DNA from: Nitrososphaera viennensis EN76
GTDB taxonomy: Archaea; Thermoproteota; Nitrososphaeria; Nitrososphaerales; Nitrososphaeraceae
Assembly: GCF_000698785.1 (NCBI RefSeq)
Contig: NZ_CP007536.1
Span: 720,001 to 752,000 of the forward strand
DNA: 32,000 nt
Direction: 5' to 3'
In this document: piece by piece, positions 19,181 to 32,000 of the stretch
How the letters are laid out: every line of letters starts with the position of its first letter
Numbering within the stretch: the stretch's first letter is position 1
Notes under the pieces: generated by a model
Told to the model about the DNA's origin: nothing
Database searches by the model: none
Seen by the model: the letters and a program-made list of their open reading frames with translations, nothing else
Program-made: the position numbers and the translations under genes

Positions 19181-20308
19181 TTGCCAGAAGGCAAGAACAA
19201 AGGTCAAAGAGCACGGGTCTTCCAAGGAGGCGGCGCGCTTGGTGCCTACGAAGCCGGCACCTACCAACAGATCTATAAAAAAGTCAGCCAGGAAAACGCG
19301 GACGGCAGGCTGTTTGATATTATCACAGGTACTTCTATAGGGGCCATAAATTCCACGGTCTTGGTAGGACACTATCTCAGGAACAACAGCTGGAAAGGCT
19401 CTGCAGAGAAAATCTTGGAATTCTGGAAAGGACTTATGTGCACCACTATTGCGGATGATCTGTTCGGCAGGAACCCGTTTATCCGCAACTCATGGGACTA
19501 TTTACACGCGACCAATTCCGGCATAGCCGATACAGAAAGTGCCAGAAGGTTCTGGTCGATTTTCGAGTTTGCCTTCACCCCACGCGGGGTACCAAACATG
19601 TATGAATCTGTCCCAACATGGGGCTCCAAGTTCCTCAACCCGTTTACGGATTTCTTGCCGTGGTGGCGGTACGACTATAGGCAATTGAGGAGCTATCTTT
19701 CAAAGTTCGTCGATTTCCCCATAAAAACAAGTCTTGAAAAAGGACAGCCAAGATTGCTTCTCACCAGCGTTGACATTCAGGATTATGCGACACCGGTGGT
19801 ATTTGACAGCTATGAAAAACTGCATGACGCTTCCGTTAATGATGATGTTACCATTGACACAGCAAAAGAGGGAAAAAGTAAAAACAGCAGATGGTTTTCA
19901 GAATACGGAAATTCGGAAAACAGACACATTGTATTTTACGATGGAATCGGCCCAGATCAGGTGCTCGCAAGCGCTCTCGGCAAGTATGCTCTGGACCATC
20001 CTCAAATTGAGGATAAAGCAACTGGAACGGTACGGCAATTGTGGGACGGTGGATACCTAAGCAATACCCCGTTGCGTGAACTCTTGACAGCCCATAAAAA
20101 TTACTGGATGGAATATTTGCGAAAGAACCGTGGAGGCAGCCAAAAATCATTTACGCGGGCCCCAGAGCTTGAAGTGTACATCGTCAACCTGCATCCTCTG
20201 GCACCAAAGGATATTCCACAGGACAAGGATCTTATTGATGACAGAGAGAGAGTGATATTCTATTTCACGATAGGACTACGTACGATGAATACGTTGCGTA
20301 TGTCATGA
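19181..20308 (+). CDS. Patatin-like phospholipase, N-terminal catalytic part (frame-broken at its 3' end)
   Basis: Oxyanion motif VFQGGGALGAYEAG, nucleophile GTSIG (GxSxG) and catalytic Asp in WDGGYLSNTP. TTG start. The last 20 or so residues (VIFYFTIGLRTMNTLRMS) look out of frame. Confidence 0.8.
   Translation: MPEGKNKGQRARVFQGGGALGAYEAGTYQQIYKKVSQENADGRLFDIITGTSIGAINSTVLVGHYLRNNSWKGSAEKILEFWKGLMCTTIADDLFGRNPFIRNSWDYLHATNSGIADTESARRFWSIFEFAFTPRGVPNMYESVPTWGSKFLNPFTDFLPWWRYDYRQLRSYLSKFVDFPIKTSLEKGQPRLLLTSVDIQDYATPVVFDSYEKLHDASVNDDVTIDTAKEGKSKNSRWFSEYGNSENRHIVFYDGIGPDQVLASALGKYALDHPQIEDKATGTVRQLWDGGYLSNTPLRELLTAHKNYWMEYLRKNRGGSQKSFTRAPELEVYIVNLHPLAPKDIPQDKDLIDDRERVIFYFTIGLRTMNTLRMS
20243..20252 (+). 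repeat. (AG)5 dinucleotide repeat at the patatin frameshift site
   Basis: The sequence acAGAGAGAGAGtgat is read directly. Adding one AG unit joins the two patatin reading frames. Confidence 0.9.
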
Positions 20309-20913
20309 CAGACTATATCGACATGGCTAATGCCCTTGTCGAGCTTGCAAGATCAAAGGGCTTTTCAAAAAACGTTGAAGAGATTCTGGAAAGAGAAGCA
20401 AAAACCATTTCAAGGGTCGGCGAATACAGATTTACTACGTATAGGGACCTTTTGTATGGAAAGCCGCGCATATCGAAAGTCTGGCGGATAGACAGGCTAG
20501 AGAGCTCCGGCGCAACATTTGGCAAGGTCACGGACTTTACTCCCTCTTCCATCAGAAGGCTGATCCAATCTGGCGAGATCGATGCCAGGATTTCACTTGA
20601 TAGAATGGAGGTCATCTTTGCCATAGAAGACCTGATTTCTGACGGCATCATGTCGATAGAAGAGGGCGACGAGATAATAAGAGAGGCAAGGGAATTCTTG
20701 ACAACCGAGCAATTGTTATACAGAAAAAGAAAGGAAGAAGTGATAGAGGCTTACAACAGATTTGTCAAGATAATAGAATCCAAAGTCAAGTCGCCTGAGC
20801 GCAAAGAGATGTTGATCAGCCCTGGAAGAGATATTATCGCCATAGTTTCAGAAGCAGACGATGCCAGGCGTGCGAGCAACCATGATGATGAATCAATCGG
20901 CAGACTTGTTTGA
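20305..20913 (+). CDS. C-terminal portion of the same patatin-like protein (separate ORF due to frameshift)
   Basis: This frame stays open upstream to 20242 and reads QRESDILFHDRTTYDEYVAYVMTDYIDMANAL, continuing naturally from ...QDKDLIDDRER in the other frame. That the two ORFs form one protein is inference. Confidence 0.6.
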   Translation: MTDYIDMANALVELARSKGFSKNVEEILEREAKTISRVGEYRFTTYRDLLYGKPRISKVWRIDRLESSGATFGKVTDFTPSSIRRLIQSGEIDARISLDRMEVIFAIEDLISDGIMSIEEGDEIIREAREFLTTEQLLYRKRKEEVIEAYNRFVKIIESKVKSPERKEMLISPGRDIIAIVSEADDARRASNHDDESIGRLV

Positions 20914-22979: not shown

Positions 22980-23228
22980 GTACATGCGCGCGTCCATAAG
23001 AGAAATAATGCGAGTTGTAGGATTCATGCATGTGTTTTTACTAGTAAGAGAGTTCAAATTTGATTGGACCCATCTTAATGAGTGGGCATATACAAGACTC
23101 CTCGGATTTGTGATTTTACGTTGATTGATGAAGAAGAATTTTCACCATATTTAGCGTATTGGCACCAATTATTAGAGATAGATCGTGTTGCTTATATCGA
23201 ACATACTTAGTATTTGCTATAATAACGC

Positions 23229-24218
23229 TTGACCGCTGTTCCCAAAGAACTCATCTATGTTGTAATCAGTAGTGGACTCCTTGTGGTTGTGGGGACCGCA
23301 ATGTGGGAGTTAATTCGATTGCCTGATGTTGGCATGGGGACAAAGGATTCAACTCTTGATGGCAATACACTCAACTCGACATTTTATATGAAGAACAACG
23401 GCCTGCTTACAGTGCACAATGTCCGCGTTACCCTCAATTCAAATGTCGAATTACTAGATATTCAAGAGGGATTCCACACAGAAAAATTTGACATCGTTGC
23501 CAATGGTGAAAGGTCGATAATAATCGACGCACCTAGGCTTTCTACTCAAACCGAAATCGATTTGCGGATTTCAATGAATATAACAGGAAGCAAGAACATA
23601 ACGTTGAAGGGATTTGCGTCATACGATGAGAAAAGCAACATTGTCGAGCTAGAATACAACCGATCTAATCAAGAGTTTGCTCCAAGTATTTTCACCTTTC
23701 TAACCTTCATCATCACCATCCTTTTCATAATACTGGTTGTAGTAATAGTATCTCTAGTTGTCATCACCATCTATGTCATAAGACGGAAACGACGATTTGA
23801 CAGATTGCGCACGGCATTAGACAGCATATCAGAACTTGGAAATTCTTTTAACAAAACAAAAGAGAAATTTGTTGAAGTTATAGAACAGGAAATATCAAGA
23901 GCAAATGCCCAACTTTCCAAAGACATTACAAATAAGACTATACTTTCAACGGATATCTGGGATAAGGCATCACAGAAATGGAAAAAGACATTCTTTGAAG
24001 ATAATGATTATGAAATAGTAAATAGATTCTATACAGAGACAAGAAGAAGAAACGTAAAGGTTGAAACTGCGCCTGATAAGTTGACTGAAGACGAATTGCG
24101 AGTACTAAATCAGGAGTGTTATTATTTATCCCGATTGGCTCTGAATGATGTGCGTTGGCCTCTAAAAAAACAGGGCGAACCCAACAAAAACCAATTTCGG
24201 ATAAATCAACTTAGATAA
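23229..24218 (+). CDS. Hypothetical 2-TM membrane protein (beta-rich ectodomain, cytoplasmic helical/coiled-coil tail)
   Basis: 329-aa ORF in AT-rich DNA with a TTG start. It has an N-terminal TM, an N/T/S-rich roughly 130-aa segment, a long second TM (IFTFLTFIITILFIILVVVIVSLVVITIYVI) followed by RRKRR, then a K/E-rich tail. Confidence 0.5.
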   Translation: MTAVPKELIYVVISSGLLVVVGTAMWELIRLPDVGMGTKDSTLDGNTLNSTFYMKNNGLLTVHNVRVTLNSNVELLDIQEGFHTEKFDIVANGERSIIIDAPRLSTQTEIDLRISMNITGSKNITLKGFASYDEKSNIVELEYNRSNQEFAPSIFTFLTFIITILFIILVVVIVSLVVITIYVIRRKRRFDRLRTALDSISELGNSFNKTKEKFVEVIEQEISRANAQLSKDITNKTILSTDIWDKASQKWKKTFFEDNDYEIVNRFYTETRRRNVKVETAPDKLTEDELRVLNQECYYLSRLALNDVRWPLKKQGEPNKNQFRINQLR

Positions 24219-24246
24219 CCTAACAAATCCCGATGTTGGATTGTGA

Positions 24247-24423
24247 TTATTTGTTAATCTTCCTGAAGACCTTTTGATATACTCTAATTGTTTTCCCCGC
24301 TGAAAGTTTCTTTTGTTGATACCATAGCCCGGATTTGCTGATGCCTAGTCTCTTCCTCTCATCTGGAGTTATTGAAAGTATACGCTGGGAAATCTCCAAA
24401 TTATCATTCCTCTTGATCACCAT
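24247..24423 (-). pseudogene. 58-codon HTH-like ORF, probably the 3' remnant of a frame-broken gene
   Basis: My translation is MVIKRNDNLEISQRILSITPDERKRLGISKSGLWYQQKKLSAGKTIRVYQKVFRKINK, with an HTH-like core LGISKSGLWYQQKK. An upstream ORF in another frame (..MNAKSYFKIEMPLTKLFFRITCERLPILLLARVSGLILMCPHGDQEE) ends overlapping its start. Confidence 0.3.
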
Positions 24424-24862
24424 GCGGGCACATCAAAATCAATCCGCTTACTCTTGCCAATAACAAAATAGGCAATCTCTCGCACGTTATTCTAAAGAAT
24501 AGTTTGGTAAGTGGCATTTCTATTTTGAAGTAGGACTTTGCATTCATGTTCAACTTTACCTTTTCAATCAAAACATTAGCCGTCCGTTCTTTGAGCCGGA
24601 CATGGTAGTTCTGTCACGACGAAATCCGATTTCTTTAACCTCTTCTTTTCTTCCAGCAGCTGTATAACTAACAGGTCAGCAGCCTACCGGAACAACTCTT
24701 GCAAGTCATATTATACTAACGACTCTTTGCTTTCATCAAGTTCATCCAAGAAACCGATTGCAGGGCCTGACCTGATAGCATATACGCTTGCGCAAGCCTC
24801 TGCGCTATAAAAGAACTAACAGCAAGATCTACAACTACGCTTGTATTTGTAGTCCACTGGAA

Positions 24863-24885
24863 ACGCGCACGCACATATACATGTA
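24863..24885. repeat. Perfect alternating purine-pyrimidine tract (23 nt)
   Basis: acgcgcacgcacatatacatgta, in the decayed AT-rich region. Confidence 0.85.
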
Positions 24886-25080
24886 AATAAGGTGCGGGGG
24901 GTGCGATATAAGGATTGAGTTCGGTGCGGTGGATCTGCTTTCCCGAAATTATTGACCCAACCCGATGATTCTATGGTCGAACTGGACATAATAAGAAGAA
25001 AAGACTGAAATCGTCAGTGAATGGGAATGACGTTTTCATCACCCGTGACATCTTCAGGTTGCAGAATGTCAACGAATCAC

Positions 25081-25152
25081 GGGCCGAGATAGATAGCTTT
25101 ATTTTGGCGCGCTATAGGTCAATCGCCACGAGTTCAAATCCCTCTGGGCCCG
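25081..25152 (+). other. tRNA-like remnant / pseudo-tRNA (intact T-loop, 3' T-stem and acceptor 3' strand; degenerate 5' two-thirds)
   Basis: The 72-nt segment is GGGCCGA...GAGTTCAAATCCCTCTGGGCCCG. The ends pair 6 of 7 as an acceptor stem and TTCAAAT is a canonical T-loop. The D arm, anticodon arm and 5' T-stem cannot be folded. Confidence 0.3.
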
Positions 25153-25200
25153 CTACTCTTTAGTATCGGAACCCTGCTTTTTGACCCGTTAGCCATGCTC

Positions 25201-25443
25201 CTAACATAGGAGTTTCAAAATATAAACATGCTTGTAAAAAGCTGTGTTAGGAGCCACCTTTGTATTGGTCAAAAACATTATACGTCCCTTTCTAAGGCAC
25301 CGGACAGCAATGTTTTCGCGCATGGCGTCGCCTTCCTGCTTGGCATCGGCGTAGTAATGGGCCGCGAACATCTCCCTTCGTTCAAAAAAGCCGCGATACC
25401 GAATATCGGAACGGATCCAAAATGAACGAGCCAAAACCTGCAA
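25201..25443 (-). CDS. Hypothetical ORF next to the tRNA-like remnant (coding status doubtful)
   Basis: 80-aa track ORF with no motifs I can support. It lies in AT-rich decayed DNA. Confidence 0.2.
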   Translation of the reverse strand: MQVLARSFWIRSDIRYRGFFERREMFAAHYYADAKQEGDAMRENIAVRCLRKGRIMFLTNTKVAPNTAFYKHVYILKLLC

Positions 25444-25469
25444 AGCAAGACTAGGAAAAGACTAAATCA

Positions 25470-25787
25470 TTGTCAGAATTTCCTTCGTCTGTGGCACAAG
25501 GCGTCCTTATCGATAATGATATTCTTGGTTGGGCTAATAGTCATGAAGATGAGCTCATAAGGATTTACGGCAAGATCGTAAAAGTTGGATCCCCAGATAT
25601 TCCGCGGAGGCAACCAGACCACCTGCTTGCTGCATACTGCAAAGACCGTGATTTCGATATGCTAACTCGCGACAATAAGGCTTACACGTATTATTTTACC
25701 GCCGGCATCAAGACAGTGCAACTATCAAGATATGATTGGGATAAGAAAGGAGACAAGCCAGTCTACCTAATCAAAATTATAGATTAG
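25470..25787 (+). CDS. PIN-like (DUF5615/Mut7-C-like pattern) domain protein
   Basis: GVLIDNDILGW ... PDHLLAAYCKDRDFDMLTRDNKAY ... follows the pattern llDenl ... D..ll..a ... lvT.D.df of small PIN-like nucleases. TTG start. Assignment rests on the pattern only. Confidence 0.4.
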   Translation: MSEFPSSVAQGVLIDNDILGWANSHEDELIRIYGKIVKVGSPDIPRRQPDHLLAAYCKDRDFDMLTRDNKAYTYYFTAGIKTVQLSRYDWDKKGDKPVYLIKIID

Positions 25788-25805
25788 CCGTCAGGCTTCA
25801 GCTAA

Positions 25806-26063
25806 TTATTTGATTTTCATCAGGAACTTTCCTCGCAGCCAATTCTGTATGTTCCACATTAAGCTGGCAGTTGACAGAACAGTGCCGGTCCTTTCTAAGA
25901 CGCTATAAAATGTCGACTCTGCCGGTATGTATTGTTGTACCAGCATAGATACGAAGTAAAGCGATACTACTGAAATCGTGACGATTGTCGCATATCTGGC
26001 CAGCATGTGCGGGCGCGACCGCTTTCCTCGTGTCCCAGAGCTGCGACGTCTTCTGTTCGGCAC
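25806..26063 (-). CDS. Hypothetical small membrane protein with Arg-rich N-terminus
   Basis: 85 aa: MPNRRRRSSGTRGKRSRP followed by one clear TM (YATIVTISVVSLYFVSMLV). Confidence 0.35.
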   Translation of the reverse strand: MPNRRRRSSGTRGKRSRPHMLARYATIVTISVVSLYFVSMLVQQYIPAESTFYSVLERTGTVLSTASLMWNIQNWLRGKFLMKIK

Positions 26064-26251: not shown

Positions 26252-27076
26252 ATGTCTGCTTTGAGTTTGTATGACGACGAGGATGCGCGGGAGCAGAGAA
26301 CGAGGAAACCCCGAAAAGAGGTGCTAGATGATGCAGCGGACGCCTTTGCGGCTGTCTTCGGCCAGTCTGCAAAGACCCGGATATCAATCCTGCGCGTGTT
26401 GCGGCGGAGCATTAACCCACTGAGATACAAAGACCTGTTGAATAGCGTGCGGTCCGAACTCGGCGGGGGCGAAATGCTGAGCGAACAGAATTTTAACTAT
26501 CACATCAAGGACCTCAAGAAGTTTGGAGTTGTCGATCAGGACATTACCAGCAAATATATTATCACTACCTTGGGTGCCCTTCTACTTTCTGCGTATGAGC
26601 AGGTTAGAAGTCGGACAGGTGGAGATAGCGTCAAGGACAAGCCAGGCTTCGTAGGCGAGCTGAACGTTATTATGCAATCATCGCAGTTTGATGCGGCCGC
26701 TCTTGGAGAGGAGCTCATAAGGCAGCAGCTCTTTATGCCAGTCCCTTCGGCTGACGGGTCGGTCGCCCTTAAGTGGAGAGACGATGACGAAAGCATCGAC
26801 TCAGAAATAGAGTTGCATCAAGACGGAACAATATATGTCAAAGTCATTGTTTACGAAAAGCTGGCGCAGATCGCAGGCTATCAGAGCGAAGATCTTGACA
26901 AGGCCAGCCCGTGGTATGACACGGTAATTTCGCTCGCCAAAGCAATGTACTACTATGTGAGCCGGGCCGCTAGAAGACTTTGGCCTGACGTTCATGACGA
27001 GATAACCATCGAGGACTCTTACCCAATAAACCGGTTCCTGCCGACAGCAAAGCGCAGTGTTGAGGAGAGTGAGTAG
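26252..27076 (+). CDS. ArsR-like winged-helix protein with uncharacterised roughly 150-aa C-terminal domain; pAgo-associated partner
   Basis: Acidic/basic N-terminal tail, then TRISILRVLRRSINPLRYKDLLNSV ... NFNYHIKDLKKFGVVD (ArsR/SmtB-type wHTH pattern). A C-terminal domain with no motif I recognise follows. The stop TAG 27074-27076 is 2 nt before the pAgo ATG. The track start TTG 26180 is judged too long. Confidence 0.75.
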   Translation: MSALSLYDDEDAREQRTRKPRKEVLDDAADAFAAVFGQSAKTRISILRVLRRSINPLRYKDLLNSVRSELGGGEMLSEQNFNYHIKDLKKFGVVDQDITSKYIITTLGALLLSAYEQVRSRTGGDSVKDKPGFVGELNVIMQSSQFDAAALGEELIRQQLFMPVPSADGSVALKWRDDDESIDSEIELHQDGTIYVKVIVYEKLAQIAGYQSEDLDKASPWYDTVISLAKAMYYYVSRAARRLWPDVHDEITIEDSYPINRFLPTAKRSVEESE

Positions 27077-27078
27077 TC

Positions 27079-29397
27079 ATGGAAAGACAACTCTCCAGCT
27101 ACCAGATCAACCTCTTCAGGTACGAAGGTAAGCCGTTCGAGTCAGGCGTGACCTTGGCGGTCTACAAACCGAAAAACGAGGTCCCAGAAGACAAGCTCTT
27201 CCTAGTAGGCCAGGCTACAAAAGCAGTACAGGACAATGCAGGCGAAGGTGCTGTTGCATTCCAGTACGGAACCACTGTTTACTGCTTGTCCAAGATGCCA
27301 AGCAACCTGAAGGATTCGATACCTGTCGCTGACAGCTACAGTAAGGAGATCAACATTTGGTACAGAAACCAAGACCATGTCGCTCACCCAAGCAACCAAA
27401 GTGACCGAGAACTGCTCAGGCGGCTCGTGGCGAAAGCGATCAGCAACCAGCACATACAGAACAAATGGTTTGTCGAGCAGTACAAGATGGTATATCATTG
27501 GTCATTCAGGCTGTCTGAACAGCTATCGCATGGGAAGTTCGAAGTTTACCACGGGTTCGTATTCAGACCTTACATCTACGAGGATGGAACATGCGCCGTC
27601 CTCCTCGACCCAAAATTCAAGTTCGTGCTCAAAGAGACGTTGAGGGATTACATTGCAAGCCTGGAACAGCAGGGCAAGACGAGAGAGGAAATCGAATACA
27701 TCTTGCGCGGAGAGCAGGTAATAGACCACTGTCCAGTCATCGACTGCATGCACCGTAATAACCCTGAAAGCGATTGCAGGCTAAAGGGTTCTGGCAAGAG
27801 GAGGCTGCTTACCGGGCTTGACTTTACACGTAAACCCACGGCGTCGGGTCATGGCGACTTGCTGCAATATCATAGAAACGTAGTATGTAAGAACAATGGA
27901 AAAATTGCGGACATGATGCAGGACTCTGCACCAATTGCGATGATCCAGTTCCCTAATACACCAAGACCGTACGACTACCCGCTGGAAAGGCTCAGGCGCG
28001 AAGTCAGGATGCACGACCTTGATAAAATCGGAAGGATAAAGGTCATGGAATACATGCGGCCGTCGATGGTCAGCCGCTGGAATATGACAAAATCGTTCAT
28101 CCAGTATGTCGACAACGTACCTCTGGCCAACCTTACATTAAGAATATCAAGAGATTTTTCCCAAGCAGGCGAAAGGGGATTCCCGTGGGAGAACTTTGAA
28201 ATGTTGCCCGATGTTCCCCTGGCGTTTGCAAAAGGAAAAGAAGACACCGACCCCATGAGAGGGCTCGAAGAGAACGGTCCTTTTGACCTGAATGATGAAA
28301 GGATAACAAACGTCGAATTCACGATCTATTGTTTTTCAAGAAGGGTGACGCTAGAGCAGATCGAAGAGTTCTACAACGATTTGACAAACGGCTTCCAGGG
28401 CAGACCCCTGTTCAAAGGTTTCCACAGCCTCTTCAACGTCAGGGCGCCGAAATTCGACAAGTCGATGGTCAAGTACAAAATAGAACTGCCACCGCCGCCC
28501 CAAAAAGCAGGGTCAAAAAAATTCGCCTTGGTGATCGTGCCTGCGATATCATTCAAGAAGGCGAAGGAGTACATGCCATTGAAACAACTATTCGTCAAGA
28601 ATGGCATTCCAAGCCAGTTCGTGTTGTCGCAGAATATTGCGCCCGACCTGACTCCGTCGAAATACGTCGGCATCTTGAAGAACCTGGCATTAGAGATTTA
28701 CGCAAAGATAGGCGGAACCGCATGGGCCTTGAGCAGGCCGACAGGAGACGGCAAATGCTTCATCGGAGTCGACTCCATTACGCGGAAAAAGGTCACATAC
28801 TTTTCTGTGCAGGTGTTCAACGGACGCGGCGTATGGATCTGTGGCTGGACTAGGTCTGTCCCCGCTGAGCAATATGGCAAATCTTTACAGGACACTCTCA
28901 CAAACGCCATCAGAATATTTGCAAAGACCCAAGGTGCAATAAAAGAGGTCGTTGCGCATAAGGAAGGCAATGTGTGGAGCTCGGAGACAGATGCAATAAA
29001 GAGTGCGACAGCCCATCACAAGACTAGAGTGGTATCGATAATCAAGACAGGAATAATGCGCGTCTATGACAAATCGAAACAGGACAACATAACAAACCGC
29101 GGGCTCTTCGTAGAATTAGACAAGAATGAGGCCCTGCTAGTCACCAGCGGACCACCACATCCAATACAAGGTTCGCAGAAGGCTCTGACTGTCAGAGTCG
29201 CTTCAGGCTTGGATGGAACGACACTTAAGGACATATGCAACGATGTTTTCCTTCTCTCGACAAGCTACGGAGGATACATTCTGGCTGCAACTTCGAAACC
29301 CGTCACTACGTACTATGCAAATAAAGCAACCAGCATATCTGCCCAAAATGGGCTTGAAGTGTCTGATGATCTTTGGAGAAGCACCTGGTTCATTTAG
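27079..29397 (+). CDS. Long prokaryotic Argonaute (N-L1-PAZ-like-L2-MID-PIWI), predicted slicer-deficient
   Basis: MID/PIWI hallmarks are EYMPLKQLFVKNGIPSQFV (Y498, K502, Q513), LKNLALEIYAKIGGTAWAL (K543) and CFIGVDS (D565). VVAHKEGN replaces the RDG motif (E629). PVTTYYANKA replaces YYAH/YYAD (N748). At 772 aa there is room for N and PAZ-like regions. Confidence 0.9.
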   Translation: MERQLSSYQINLFRYEGKPFESGVTLAVYKPKNEVPEDKLFLVGQATKAVQDNAGEGAVAFQYGTTVYCLSKMPSNLKDSIPVADSYSKEINIWYRNQDHVAHPSNQSDRELLRRLVAKAISNQHIQNKWFVEQYKMVYHWSFRLSEQLSHGKFEVYHGFVFRPYIYEDGTCAVLLDPKFKFVLKETLRDYIASLEQQGKTREEIEYILRGEQVIDHCPVIDCMHRNNPESDCRLKGSGKRRLLTGLDFTRKPTASGHGDLLQYHRNVVCKNNGKIADMMQDSAPIAMIQFPNTPRPYDYPLERLRREVRMHDLDKIGRIKVMEYMRPSMVSRWNMTKSFIQYVDNVPLANLTLRISRDFSQAGERGFPWENFEMLPDVPLAFAKGKEDTDPMRGLEENGPFDLNDERITNVEFTIYCFSRRVTLEQIEEFYNDLTNGFQGRPLFKGFHSLFNVRAPKFDKSMVKYKIELPPPPQKAGSKKFALVIVPAISFKKAKEYMPLKQLFVKNGIPSQFVLSQNIAPDLTPSKYVGILKNLALEIYAKIGGTAWALSRPTGDGKCFIGVDSITRKKVTYFSVQVFNGRGVWICGWTRSVPAEQYGKSLQDTLTNAIRIFAKTQGAIKEVVAHKEGNVWSSETDAIKSATAHHKTRVVSIIKTGIMRVYDKSKQDNITNRGLFVELDKNEALLVTSGPPHPIQGSQKALTVRVASGLDGTTLKDICNDVFLLSTSYGGYILAATSKPVTTYYANKATSISAQNGLEVSDDLWRSTWFI

Positions 29398-29972: not shown

Positions 29973-32000
29973 ATGGCAGTAGTCATAAGATCCGCCAAGA
30001 TTGACAGTTTCAGAGGAGTAAACACTGAACGCACCGTCACGTTTTCACAGGGCGTCACGCTTATCCATGGCCTCAACGGCATGGGCAAGACCACGGTTTT
30101 ACAGGCAATCGAGTGGTGTCTGACTGGCGAGATCCCAAGTTTTGAAGGGCCAGACTTTAAGGAAGAGGATGCCATCGTAAATTGCTTCACGGACAAGAAA
30201 TCCGCGTCTGTTATCCTTACGCTAGAAGATACCACTTCCAACAGAATCATGACGGTGGAGCGCCGACGCAGGCGGTCCAAGAGCTCAAGCACAACCAAGA
30301 CCAATACCTCGCTCAAGGTAGGGATTGACGGCAAAGAGTATGAAAATGATCGTGCGGTGGAAATTCTTTCGCAGTTGCTCGGTGTGGGTCTGGAAGACCT
30401 TGCAAAGAACACGTACATCCGGCAGGATGCCATTGACCAATTACTCCATGAAAAGCCGGAGGAGAGGTCCCGGGCCCTCGACACGATCCTCGGCACCGAC
30501 AAGATTCGGGGGTTCCTGGATGCCATCAACGTAAGCACTTCGAGGACCAGAAATTCACTCAAAGAAAAGATAGAGGGGATCGAGATAGGCAGGGTTCAGA
30601 TTGCAACAGCGCTGCAGGAAGAGGCCGAGGAGACAAAGAACCGGCTGCTGGCTGGGGGGATGCACAAAGAAGACCTTAACTTGCAGCAGGCCGTCAAATC
30701 TGCGGGCTCCCTCTTTGATAAGATAACCAGTCTGGCCACTGCAGTTGGCGCCAGACCGCCTGCAAAGGCGGCTATACCCGCTGACCCTTCCGAGCTCTAC
30801 GAGAGCCTCGAGAAGTATGCAAAGGATGCCGATGAAATAGACCGCGCAAGACAGGAAGTTCACTCACAAAAGTCTAACCAGATAGCCAAAATCTCAGCAC
30901 CGATGAGCTCTCTGCAAGGACTCCGGGAAGGGCTGCAACAGTACAGTGGCAAGGACGTGTCATCACTACGCGGCAGTCTGGTTCAGAAGGAGAATGAGCT
31001 GCGCGGAATTGCCGAAGAGCGGACAGCAATATCCCGAGAAATTGCGCGCCTTGGCAGTAATTCCCGAGCCATCGACAATGCGCTCAGGGACTATGAAAAT
31101 GCTAGGCTACAGCTCGACCAAGTCGCTGGAGGGCAAGATGTTCAGGCGCTGAAGAAGGAGGAAGCGGAACTTCAGGCACAGCACAGTTCCAACCTTGCTC
31201 AGCAGAATGAGGCTCGTATCACGGCAGAATCACTTGGTAAGACATTTGAAGAACTGGACAGGCTCGTAACTTCCTACCGGTCAGGTGTTGAGCAGATATC
31301 GTCGCTTGGATTCGACTCTGCGGATGGCAGAGGCACGCAACAGATAGAGTCACTGCAGGCATCCATAGATGAAATGAAGTCCAAGTCAAAGGAGGCCGGC
31401 GAGAAGCAGGTCAGGCTTGCAGGTCTGGTCTCGGAGCTTCGAACAAGCAGTTCTACCATCGCATCTGTTCGGCGCACCGCAGAAGAGCTTGAGGCAAAGA
31501 TATCCGCGTCGATCCAAAAGTTTGGCGATACTGAGGCAAGAACAAAACTCCAGGAGCAAAAGTCATCCAGCCTTCGGGAAATAAAACAATCGCTTGATTC
31601 CTTTAACACATACGATAGCCTCGTCGGGAAGGCAATGGAGTATATCCGTACGGTCCGGCCTCTAAACTGCCCTCTCTGCGAGAGGCCTTCAGAACCGGAC
31701 CATCTTCTGGCATTACTAAACTCAAAGGTGAAAGGTGATATTGCCAAGAAGATTCAAGACCTCTCTGCAAAGGCCACGCAAGAAAGCGAATACCTTGACG
31801 AGCTGGCAAAAGATACAGACGCGCTTTTGGGATATAGAAGGGACCTGGAAGTGCAAAAGACAAGGATTGCTGTCGAACTTTCCCGGCTATCGACCTTGTT
31901 AGGGGTTACAGTTAATGCCGACTTTGATTTTGAAGGAAAAATAAAAGAGCTATTGAAAGAGGCAGATTCTGCCCGGAGCCTTGCAATGGAGTTAGGGGGC
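29973..32000 (+). CDS. SMC/Rad50/SbcC/DndD-like ABC ATPase with coiled coil and CxxC hook (5' partial; continues beyond the window)
   Basis: Absent from the ORF track because it has no stop in the window. I read 676 codons from ATG 29973 without a stop. The N-terminus is IRSAKIDSFRGVNTERTVTFSQGVTLIHGLNGMGKTTVLQAIEWCLTGE (Walker A). More than 500 aa of E/K/L/Q-rich coiled coil follow, with RPLNCPLCERP (C566, C569) as a hook-like motif. Confidence 0.85.
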   Translation, partial: MAVVIRSAKIDSFRGVNTERTVTFSQGVTLIHGLNGMGKTTVLQAIEWCLTGEIPSFEGPDFKEEDAIVNCFTDKKSASVILTLEDTTSNRIMTVERRRRRSKSSSTTKTNTSLKVGIDGKEYENDRAVEILSQLLGVGLEDLAKNTYIRQDAIDQLLHEKPEERSRALDTILGTDKIRGFLDAINVSTSRTRNSLKEKIEGIEIGRVQIATALQEEAEETKNRLLAGGMHKEDLNLQQAVKSAGSLFDKITSLATAVGARPPAKAAIPADPSELYESLEKYAKDADEIDRARQEVHSQKSNQIAKISAPMSSLQGLREGLQQYSGKDVSSLRGSLVQKENELRGIAEERTAISREIARLGSNSRAIDNALRDYENARLQLDQVAGGQDVQALKKEEAELQAQHSSNLAQQNEARITAESLGKTFEELDRLVTSYRSGVEQISSLGFDSADGRGTQQIESLQASIDEMKSKSKEAGEKQVRLAGLVSELRTSSSTIASVRRTAEELEAKISASIQKFGDTEARTKLQEQKSSSLREIKQSLDSFNTYDSLVGKAMEYIRTVRPLNCPLCERPSEPDHLLALLNSKVKGDIAKKIQDLSAKATQESEYLDELAKDTDALLGYRRDLEVQKTRIAVELSRLSTLLGVTVNADFDFEGKIKELLKEADSARSLAMELGG

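What the first reader, a model, noticed from the sequence alone, without database searches (positions are those of the whole stretch)
28570..29322. pAgo keeps the 5'-phosphate MID pocket but has non-canonical residues at two catalytic-tetrad positions
I aligned the conserved blocks to human Ago2 by eye (Y529/K533/Q545/K570; D597/E637/D669/H807). The MID quartet is present as Y498 (tac 28570), K502, Q513 and K543 in AKIGG. In PIWI the first Asp is present (D565, GVDS, gac 28771). The RDG Asp is Glu (E629, HKEG, gaa 28963). The YYAH/YYAD position is Asn (N748, YYAN, aat 29320). A possible glutamate finger is E597 (PAEQYG). This predicts a guide-binding protein that is deficient or atypical for slicing. 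Unlike many inactive pAgos, it still appears to have a full-length N/PAZ-like half. That makes a partner-dependent mechanism more likely.
Basis: partly seen in the sequence, partly recalled or inferred. Interest (0 to 1): 0.7.

Follow-up and report, generated by a model that had tools for sequence, protein, structure and literature searches.

The report
Inactive archaeal Argonaute with partner gene
This is the Argonaute gene of the soil archaeon Nitrososphaera viennensis: it keeps its guide-binding pocket but lacks a complete cutting site, a fact already tabulated in a 2018 catalogue. What has not been described is that it always travels with a small DNA-binding partner gene and carries a conserved four-cysteine motif.

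Summary
ORF 27079-29397 (+) encodes a 772-aa Argonaute identical to WP_075054206.1 of Nitrososphaera viennensis. Every quoted residue and codon checks out. HMMER alignments to CbAgo, CpAgo and AaAgo put D565, E597, E629 and N748 on the four catalytic positions.

It is not new. Table S1 of Ryazansky et al. 2018 lists this exact protein as long-B, with a normal PAZ, a YK-type 5'-phosphate MID and no DEDX tetrad.

Across 19 relatives the MID quartet is invariant, while the catalytic columns drift: D/A/S/G, any residue, D/E/A, N/S/E/G. The clade is therefore very probably a non-slicing guide binder. Asn at position four is tolerated in MpAgo, so only E629 is strictly deviant in this protein.

Three things appear undescribed:
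- A 250-285-aa partner (winged helix plus an alpha/beta domain) sits immediately upstream in every locus examined, including one from a very distant relative. It resembles no known Argonaute effector.
- A four-cysteine motif in PAZ is invariant across a deep clade.
- Bathyarchaeia loci add dCTP deaminase and an HExxH protein.

Verdict: a known kind (inactive long pAgo) in an uncharacterised variant. Interest is moderate.

The parts
27079..29397 (+). Argonaute gene (772 aa), N. viennensis WP_075054206.1 / AIC15131.1
   Evidence: ORF. 100% identity to P0001. Pfam Piwi. PADLOC pAgo models down to 1e-59. The AF2 model matches full-length pAgos.
27628..28020 (+). PAZ region (residues 184-314, boundaries from Ryazansky 2018), full size
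   Evidence: PMC6299218 Table S1 lists it as 'normal'. It is the most conserved part of the family: 20% invariant columns against 9-13% elsewhere.
27730..27888 (+). Four-cysteine motif inside PAZ: D216-x-C218-P-x3-C223 ... C233 ... (H265) ... C270; a putative Zn site
   Evidence: Invariant in 19/19 family members. Also invariant in 15 relatives that share only 18-22% identity. Metal binding is inferred, not shown.
28276..28722 (+). MID domain (residues 400-548) with the 5'-phosphate pocket Y498, K502, Q513, K543 (28570-28707)
   Evidence: Codons verified. All four residues are invariant in the family. Listed as 'YK-putative' in Table S1.
28723..29325 (+). PIWI domain (residues 549-749) with an incomplete tetrad: D565 (28771), E597 (28867), E629 (28963), N748 (29320)
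   Evidence: Alignment to the catalytic residues of CbAgo, CpAgo and AaAgo. Family variation at these columns. Tetrad 'NA' in Table S1.
29383..29394 (+). Conserved C-terminus ...AWF(I/V/L)-COOH
   Evidence: W770 and F771 are invariant and all 19 proteins end at the same column. In solved pAgos the C-terminal carboxylate helps hold the Mg2+ of the MID pocket; that is established knowledge, and its application here is inference.
26252..27076 (+). Partner gene (274 aa): N-terminal winged helix (about 21-122) plus a C-terminal alpha/beta domain (about 132-259). Its stop codon lies 2 nt before the Argonaute ATG.
   Evidence: Weak Pfam DUF7347/HTH_45 hits. AF2 model pLDDT 82. A homologue sits in the same position in every locus examined. 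The family has 27 members, found on contigs whose lengths match the pAgo contigs. A distant relative has one too (hhalign 95%).
25806..26063 (-). Small hydrophobic ORF (85 aa), divergent from the partner gene; membership in the system is tentative
   Evidence: 26% identity over 58 aa (E 5e-7) to an 84-aa gene in the same position and orientation in the closest locus, L001. Absent from the Bathyarchaeia loci.

Best explanation
This is a two-gene module from an integrated, low-GC island of the N. viennensis chromosome. It encodes a full-length but slicing-deficient Argonaute and an obligate small partner.

Proposed steps, all inferred:
1. The Argonaute loads a 5'-phosphorylated small nucleic acid in its intact Y-K-Q-K MID pocket, helped by the conserved C-terminal carboxylate.
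2. It anchors the 3' end in a full-size PAZ that is stabilised by a four-cysteine (probably Zn) site.
3. It base-pairs with complementary invader nucleic acid.
4. It does not cut, because the tetrad reads D-E-E-N here and is not under selection across the clade.
5. Target binding is instead read out through the translationally coupled partner (winged helix plus a TBP-like alpha/beta domain). The partner either clamps or silences the bound DNA, or serves as an adaptor for other effectors. In Bathyarchaeia those would be the linked dCTP deaminase and HExxH protein.

Shown here: gene identity, residue mapping, the conservation pattern, the fold and the synteny.
For: - Identity and residue mapping.
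- Published classification of this exact protein as long-B, YK MID, no tetrad, normal PAZ: PMC6299218 Table S1. That paper states that all long-B pAgos lack DEDX.
- Family pattern: the MID quartet is 19/19 invariant. D565 is D in only 8/19, E597 is unconstrained, position 629 is D/E/A, and position 748 is never D or H. About 30 more distant full-length relatives have fully degenerate tetrads.
- Full long-pAgo fold: pLDDT 84.9, pTM 0.82, TM 0.65-0.70 to CpAgo, CbAgo, TtAgo and RsAgo.
- Partner position: a homologue lies immediately upstream, on the same strand, abutting or overlapping the pAgo start in L001, L003-L010 and the window.
- Partner distribution: the family has 27 members, all scoring 272-404 bits. 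Where contig lengths are given they equal those of pAgo contigs, and no weaker hits appeared in the word-indexed search.
- Depth of the pairing: a pAgo from the distant tier (P0024) has a homologous partner 5 nt upstream (hhalign 95%, E 3.8e-8).
- No nuclease, SIR2, TIR or membrane effector was detected in the partner by Pfam, PADLOC, NCBIfam, PHROGs, PDB sequence search or Foldseek.
Against: - This protein keeps three carboxylates plus Asn at the four positions, and Asn is tolerated in the active MpAgo (PMC5435312).
- D565 and E629 are perfectly co-conserved (8/8). The other members have a non-Asp residue at 565 with Asp at 629 (10/11). The pair may therefore be under selection in this sub-branch, for metal binding or residual catalysis.
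- The partner has no recognisable activity. It is annotated by JGI as an ArsR-type regulator and could simply regulate the operon.
- Nothing here shows the guide type, the target type, a physical complex or a defence phenotype.
- My rough MID-PIWI tree does not resolve long-A versus long-B. The best-scoring solved structures by sequence are long-A.
Confidence: 0.6

Rival explanations
1. The Argonaute acts alone, like RsAgo, as a guide-directed binder. The upstream winged-helix protein is only the transcriptional regulator of the operon.
For: The partner's only sequence-level similarity is to ArsR/Csa3-type winged helices. JGI names two members ArsR-family regulators. HTH proteins occur in a third of long-B operons without a defined role (PMC6299218).
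Against: The pairing persists across pAgos that share only about 20% identity, and the genes abut or overlap. The C-terminal domain is as conserved as the winged helix. No family member was detected away from a pAgo-bearing contig wherever the contig could be matched. Simple regulators are usually swapped more freely.
Confidence: 0.22
2. The protein is an atypical but active slicer. D565, E597, E629 and N748 form a working metal site, perhaps Mn2+-dependent, with Glu replacing the second Asp.
For: Three carboxylates plus Asn are present at the right topological positions. Asn is an accepted fourth residue. D565 and E629 are co-conserved in 8/8 family members, rising to 10/10 when representatives P0020 and P0021 are added. 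One of these reads D-E-E-D, and the D/E state is basal in the family tree.
Against: The glutamate-finger column is unconstrained even within the D/E sub-branch: E, S, S, E, Q, K, Q, G, D. Half the family has lost the first Asp while keeping everything else. More distant relatives are fully degenerate. The 2018 catalogue scores the tetrad as absent.
Confidence: 0.13
3. The gene is a decaying relic of a horizontally acquired island with no current function.
For: The region around 23-26 kb has low GC (0.38-0.45). A tRNA 3'-end-like fragment lies nearby at 25130-25153. The extra genes seen in Bathyarchaeia loci are missing here.
Against: The 772-codon frame is intact. It matches relatives end to end, with many invariant residues in every domain. 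The partner is intact too.
Confidence: 0.04

Closest known systems
Long-B prokaryotic Argonautes (RsAgo; the BPAN, BPAS and BPAM systems of PMC10620215; EcBPAN of PMC13535254)
   Same: Full-length, with a YK-type 5'-phosphate MID pocket and no DEDX tetrad. This exact protein is labelled long-B in PMC6299218 Table S1. It is encoded in an operon with an associated protein.
   Different: PAZ is full size, whereas almost all long-B pAgos have a shortened PAZ*. The partner is not a RecB-like nuclease, SIR2 or membrane effector. It is not an RsAgo orthologue: NF052569 scores 14.6 bits against a cut-off of 700. The family profile scores RsAgo at only 30 bits and EcAgo at 54 bits.
Long-A pAgos CbAgo, CpAgo and AaAgo
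   Same: These are the closest solved structures, by sequence profile (90-92 and 63 bits) and by fold (TM 0.65-0.70). They share a normal-size PAZ and a YK MID.
   Different: CbAgo and CpAgo are active DEDD slicers. Here the tetrad is D-E-E-N and is unconstrained across the family. Sequence similarity is confined to MID-PIWI.
MpAgo (Marinitoga piezophila), the active pAgo behind the rule that the fourth tetrad residue (X of DEDX) may be Asn
   Same: It has Asn at the fourth tetrad position according to my own recollection of MpAgo (D446/E482/D516/N624), which I could not confirm here. PMC5435312 itself says only that X may be His, Asp or Asn.
   Different: MpAgo keeps Asp at the third position and binds 5'-OH guides. 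The protein here has Glu there and a canonical 5'-phosphate pocket.
AfAgo with its upstream N-L1-L2 partner (PMC10954474)
   Same: An archaeal, inactive Argonaute whose function depends on a protein encoded immediately upstream in the same operon (abstract seen).
   Different: AfAgo is truncated, and its partner supplies the missing N-L1-L2 domains. Here the Argonaute is already full length, and the partner is a winged helix plus a TBP-like domain.
SiAgo-Aga1-Aga2 of Sulfolobus islandicus (PMC11788926)
   Same: An archaeal, inactive Argonaute that works through associated proteins, one of them a membrane effector.
   Different: SiAgo is a short pAgo. No Aga1/Aga2 homologues were detected (PADLOC). 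The only membrane-like candidate here is an 85-aa divergent ORF shared with just one other locus.

Membership tests
Argonaute/PIWI superfamily, long type | PIWI domain with an RNase H fold | tested here: met
   Pfam PF02171 scores 48.9 bits against a cut-off of 28.9. PADLOC pAgo models reach 1e-59.
Argonaute/PIWI superfamily, long type | Four-domain N-PAZ-MID-PIWI architecture | tested here: met
   The AF2 model (pLDDT 84.9) aligns over the full length of CpAgo, CbAgo, TtAgo, RsAgo and hAgo2 with TM 0.6-0.7. PAZ 184-314 is listed as 'normal' in PMC6299218 Table S1.
Argonaute with a 5'-phosphate-binding MID | The Y/K...Q...K motif of the MID pocket | tested here: met
   Y498, K502, Q513 and K543 are present and invariant in 19/19 relatives.
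Slicer-competent Argonaute | DEDX catalytic tetrad (X = D, H, N or K) | tested here: not met
   The tetrad reads D565-E597-E629-N748, so the third position is Glu rather than Asp. The columns are not conserved in the family.
Slicer-competent Argonaute | Guide-dependent target cleavage | not testable with these tools
   This needs purified protein.
Long-B pAgo clade (Ryazansky 2018) | Placement in the long-B branch of the MID-PIWI tree | tested here: inconclusive
   The published table says long-B. My NJ tree of 159 MID-PIWI sequences is star-like and places the family on its own deep branch. Profile scores favour long-A structures over RsAgo and EcAgo.
Long-B pAgo clade (Ryazansky 2018) | No DEDX tetrad, with a YK MID motif | tested here: met
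Long-B pAgo clade (Ryazansky 2018) | Shortened PAZ* (usual in the clade but not strictly defining) | tested here: not met
   PAZ is full size.
BPAN / BPAS / BPAM long-B systems | An adjacent nuclease (RecB-like), SIR2 or transmembrane effector gene | tested here: not met
   The neighbours give no such hits in Pfam, PADLOC, NCBIfam or PHROGs. The protein is absent from the supplements of PMC10620215.
RsAgo orthologues | Reaching the score cut-off of the NCBIfam equivalog NF052569 | tested here: not met
   14.6 bits against a cut-off of 700.

The most novel reading that the evidence does not exclude
The Argonaute with a four-cysteine PAZ and its winged-helix/TBP-like partner define a distinct, deep-branching and mainly archaeal Argonaute system. 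Its output would not be one of the known enzymatic effectors. The partner would convert guide-directed target recognition into DNA clamping or silencing, or would recruit unlinked or loosely linked effectors: dCTP deaminase and an HExxH protease in Bathyarchaeia, and possibly a small membrane protein in Nitrososphaera. A Zn site in PAZ would be essential to this.
Probability: 0.3. Interest if true: 0.7.

Novelty: new variant of a known kind. Interest (0 to 1): 0.4.

Why it matters
The residue-level finding adds nothing to the 2018 catalogue. The context is more useful.

Every characterised inactive Argonaute works through a recognisable effector: a nuclease, an NADase or a membrane protein. 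This clade has none. Instead it has kept one small nucleic-acid-binding-type partner across very deep divergence, together with a cysteine motif in PAZ that is better conserved than the MID pocket or the PIWI site.

If the pair forms a complex, it would be a new answer to how a non-cutting Argonaute produces an effect. It would also be the first handle on Argonaute biology in ammonia-oxidising archaea and Bathyarchaeia. N. viennensis is a cultured organism, so the question can be tested.

Tried and rejected
- Independent long-A/long-B placement. An NJ tree of the MID-PIWI columns of 159 sequences was star-like and uninformative. The Ryazansky supplements hold no tree file.
- Zn-site geometry. 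It could not be checked because model coordinates are not exposed.
- Bathyarchaeia block genes in the window. tblastn found none of the dCTP deaminase, HExxH, 180-aa, Cys-rich or HD proteins.
- tRNA-like stretch at about 25.08-25.15 kb. Neither ARAGORN nor Rfam calls it, even at E of 1 or less. Only the 3' part looks tRNA-derived, and there is no second copy in the window.
- Context of the distant tier. The alignment was too divergent for a metagenome scan. A single-protein scan returned one usable locus.
- Plasmid and phage collections. They hold only remote Piwi proteins at 21-27% identity.
- Literature. Searches for the accession, for Nitrososphaera with Argonaute, for zinc in PAZ and for 'PprPIWI' found nothing specific.
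- Rejected idea. The partner does not supply missing N-L1-L2 domains as in AfAgo, because the Argonaute is already full length.
Full report
**What is there.** The finding lies inside ORF 27079..29397 (+), which is 772 aa. The protein is 100% identical to 'Piwi domain-containing protein [Nitrososphaera viennensis]' (AIC15131.1 / WP_075054206.1) on a 2.53-Mb contig. The window is therefore chromosomal DNA of this ammonia-oxidising archaeon. Pfam finds a Piwi domain above threshold, and PADLOC pAgo models match down to 1e-59.

**Check of the observation.** HMMER alignments to solved prokaryotic Argonautes give an independent mapping:
- D565 falls on CbAgo D541.
- E597 falls exactly on CbAgo E577, the glutamate finger.
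- E629 falls on the Asp of the HRDG motif.
- N748 falls on CbAgo D727 and on the AaAgo YSDK Asp.

The D565 and E629 positions are the ones replaced by Ala in the catalytically dead crystal constructs 6qzk and 9jh8. An AlphaFold2 model built on 19 homologues (pLDDT 84.9, pTM 0.82) agrees. It places D565 on the first PIWI strand, E597 at the strand-3/helix-1 junction, E629 at the end of strand 4 and N748 on the C-terminal helix, which is the RNase H-fold arrangement. The model superposes on whole long Argonautes (CpAgo, CbAgo, AaAgo, TtAgo, RsAgo, HrAgo1, hAgo2) with TM 0.6-0.7. The N/PAZ half is therefore real.

**Already in the literature.** Table S1 of Ryazansky et al. 2018 (PMC6299218) lists this exact accession. 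The entry reads 772 aa, type long-B, PAZ 184-314 'normal', MID 400-548 'YK-putative', PIWI 549-749, catalytic tetrad 'NA'. The paper states that all long-B pAgos lack DEDX, are almost always YK, and nearly always have a shortened PAZ*. The one unusual item already visible in that table is the normal-size PAZ. I found no paper that discusses the protein further.

**What the family says about activity.** Nineteen homologues at 38-62% identity come from Nitrososphaera-like and Bathyarchaeia contigs.
- The MID quartet Y498/K502/Q513/K543 is invariant. So is the C-terminal W-F-x end, which in solved pAgos contributes the carboxylate of the 5'-phosphate/Mg2+ pocket.
- The catalytic columns are not conserved. 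Position 565 is D in 8, A in 7, S in 3 and G in 1. Position 597 takes seven different residues. Position 629 is E in 8, D in 10 and A in 1. Position 748 is S, N, G or E in the 19-member family, never D or H.
- About 30 more distant full-length relatives have completely degenerate tetrads, and many have also lost the Y/K of the MID pocket.

This pattern indicates a clade selected for guide binding and not for cleavage.

Two qualifications apply. [quoted passage not shown] Only E629 is strictly deviant in this protein. Second, D565 and E629 are perfectly coupled (8/8), while members lacking D565 have Asp at 629 (10/11). The D/E state is also basal in a rough family tree. Some metal-binding or residual catalytic role in this sub-branch cannot be excluded. 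I give it about 13%.

**The partner.** The ORF 26252..27076 (+) is 274 aa, which is also NCBI's call (P0169). It ends 2 nt before the Argonaute ATG. A homologue of 245-284 aa lies in the same place in every locus I could examine, on the same strand and abutting or overlapping the Argonaute start. The loci are L001, L003, L004, L005/6, L007/8, L009 and L010. Their flanks are otherwise unrelated.

A profile search of 5.8 billion proteins returned 27 members, all strong (272-404 bits). Several sit on contigs whose lengths equal those of the Argonaute contigs, and nothing weaker was found elsewhere. A pAgo from the distant tier (P0024) also has a 244-aa gene 5 nt upstream. That gene aligns to the partner profile over both domains (hhalign 95%, E 3.8e-8).

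The AF2 model (pLDDT 82) shows a winged helix (about 21-122) and an alpha/beta domain (about 132-259). Neither sequence libraries nor Foldseek tie the second domain to any enzyme. The best hints are TBP-like and AdoMetDC-like sandwiches at TM of about 0.25-0.28. The partner is not one of the known long-B effectors (nuclease, SIR2 or membrane protein; PMC10620215).

**A conserved cysteine motif.** Within PAZ, the motif D216-x-C218-P-x3-C223 ... C233 ... H265 ... C270 has all four Cys invariant in 19/19 family members. In 15 distant relatives sharing only 18-22% identity, the equivalent D, C, P, C, C and C are six of just 22 invariant columns. PAZ is the most conserved region of the family. A structural Zn site is the obvious inference, but I could not inspect the geometry. 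I found no report of such a site in pAgo PAZ domains. In the portion of Ryazansky's PAZ alignment that I read, N. viennensis is the only sequence with this insert.

**Wider context.**
- Five distinct Bathyarchaeia-type loci share a larger block: dCTP deaminase (TIGR02274, 156 bits), a divergent pair of about 450 aa (invariant HExxH) and about 180 aa, then the partner and the Argonaute. Three of them also carry a roughly 220-aa Cys-rich protein.
- None of these genes is in the window. The two-gene pair is therefore the core.
- In the window the pair sits next to a low-GC stretch and a tRNA 3'-end-like fragment. There is also a small divergent hydrophobic ORF that is conserved in the closest locus. 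Downstream lies an SMC/Rad50-like ATPase with a CxxC hook that runs off the window. This looks like a defence or mobile island.

**Mechanism.** I think the most likely reading, at about 0.6, is a guide-loaded, non-slicing Argonaute whose target binding is read out through the partner.
- Shown: identity, residue mapping, conservation, fold and synteny.
- Inferred: guide chemistry, the complex, the Zn site and the output.
- Rivals: the partner is a mere regulator (0.22); the protein is an atypical slicer (0.13); the gene is a relic (0.04).

**Classification.** Membership of the Argonaute superfamily and the long architecture is met, and the DEDX test fails. Long-B membership rests on the published tree. 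My own tree is unresolved. Profile scores are higher to long-A structures (CpAgo and CbAgo 90-92 bits) than to EcAgo (54 bits) or RsAgo (30 bits). The protein is not a BPAN, BPAS or BPAM system and not an RsAgo orthologue.

**Verdict.** The finding as written is correct but already tabulated, and it is typical of inactive long pAgos. What surrounds it is an uncharacterised variant of that kind: an obligate winged-helix partner without effector features, and a deep-conserved four-cysteine PAZ. That is of moderate interest and can be tested directly in a cultured archaeon.

Noticed in passing
window 27730-27888 (C218, C223, C233, H265, C270): A four-cysteine motif (DxCPx3C...C...C) inside PAZ is invariant in all 19 family members. 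It is also invariant in 15 relatives that share only about 20% identity, so it is better conserved than the MID pocket or the PIWI site. A Zn site is likely. I found no report of one in pAgo PAZ domains.
   Followed up: partly
window 28771-28773 and 28963-28965 (D565, E629): The two catalytic positions covary perfectly. Asp565 always comes with Glu629 (8/8). Ala, Ser or Gly at 565 comes with Asp629 (10/11). The reason is unknown and could be phylogenetic or structural.
   Followed up: partly
L003 1404-6962; L004 3683-10322; L005 3906-10364; L007 4081-9785; L009 3836-10310: Bathyarchaeia-type loci share a conserved block in otherwise unrelated flanks. It holds dCTP deaminase, a divergent roughly 450-aa protein with an invariant HExxH, a roughly 180-aa protein, the partner and the Argonaute. 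Three loci also carry a roughly 220-aa Cys-rich protein. This may be an extended system using nucleotide depletion or a protease. None of these extra genes is in the window.
   Followed up: partly
L001 10678-12051; L007 907-2187: An HD plus HD_assoc_2 (dGTPase-like) gene lies close to the Argonaute pair in two loci. Together with the dCTP deaminase, this hints at a link to dNTP metabolism or depletion.
   Followed up: no
window 29973-32000 (+), runs off the end: An SMC/Rad50-like ATPase (AAA_23, Walker A GLNGMGKTT, long coiled coil, CPLC hook-like motif) starts about 575 bp downstream of the Argonaute. It is not present next to the homologues, so it is probably a separate island gene.
   Followed up: partly
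window 25130-25153, within the low-GC stretch 23000-26000: A 24-nt stretch resembles a tRNA T-loop plus 3' acceptor strand (GAGTTCAAATCCCTCTGGGCCCGC). ARAGORN and Rfam call no tRNA, and there is no second copy in the window. It may be an att-site remnant of an integrated element. GC drops to 0.38-0.45 here.
   Followed up: partly
window 25806-26063 (-): An 85-aa ORF with a basic N-terminus and hydrophobic segments is divergent from the partner gene. It is homologous (E 5e-7) to an 84-aa gene at the same position in the closest locus, L001. It is a possible small membrane component.
   Followed up: partly
proteins P0024-P0047, P0055, P0080, P0084, P0091, P0121: A wider set of full-length relatives keeps the Cys motif but has lost the catalytic residues. 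Many have also lost the Tyr/Lys of the MID 5'-phosphate pocket. How such proteins would hold a guide is unclear.
   Followed up: partly
window 19181-20913 (+): A patatin-like phospholipase gene (375 aa) is followed by an overlapping 202-aa ORF with no family match, about 6 kb upstream of the Argonaute pair. It may be another defence-type gene in the region.
   Followed up: no
window 23229-24218 (+): A 329-aa ORF with a central hydrophobic segment has no convincing family match and lies in the lowest-GC part of the window.
   Followed up: no
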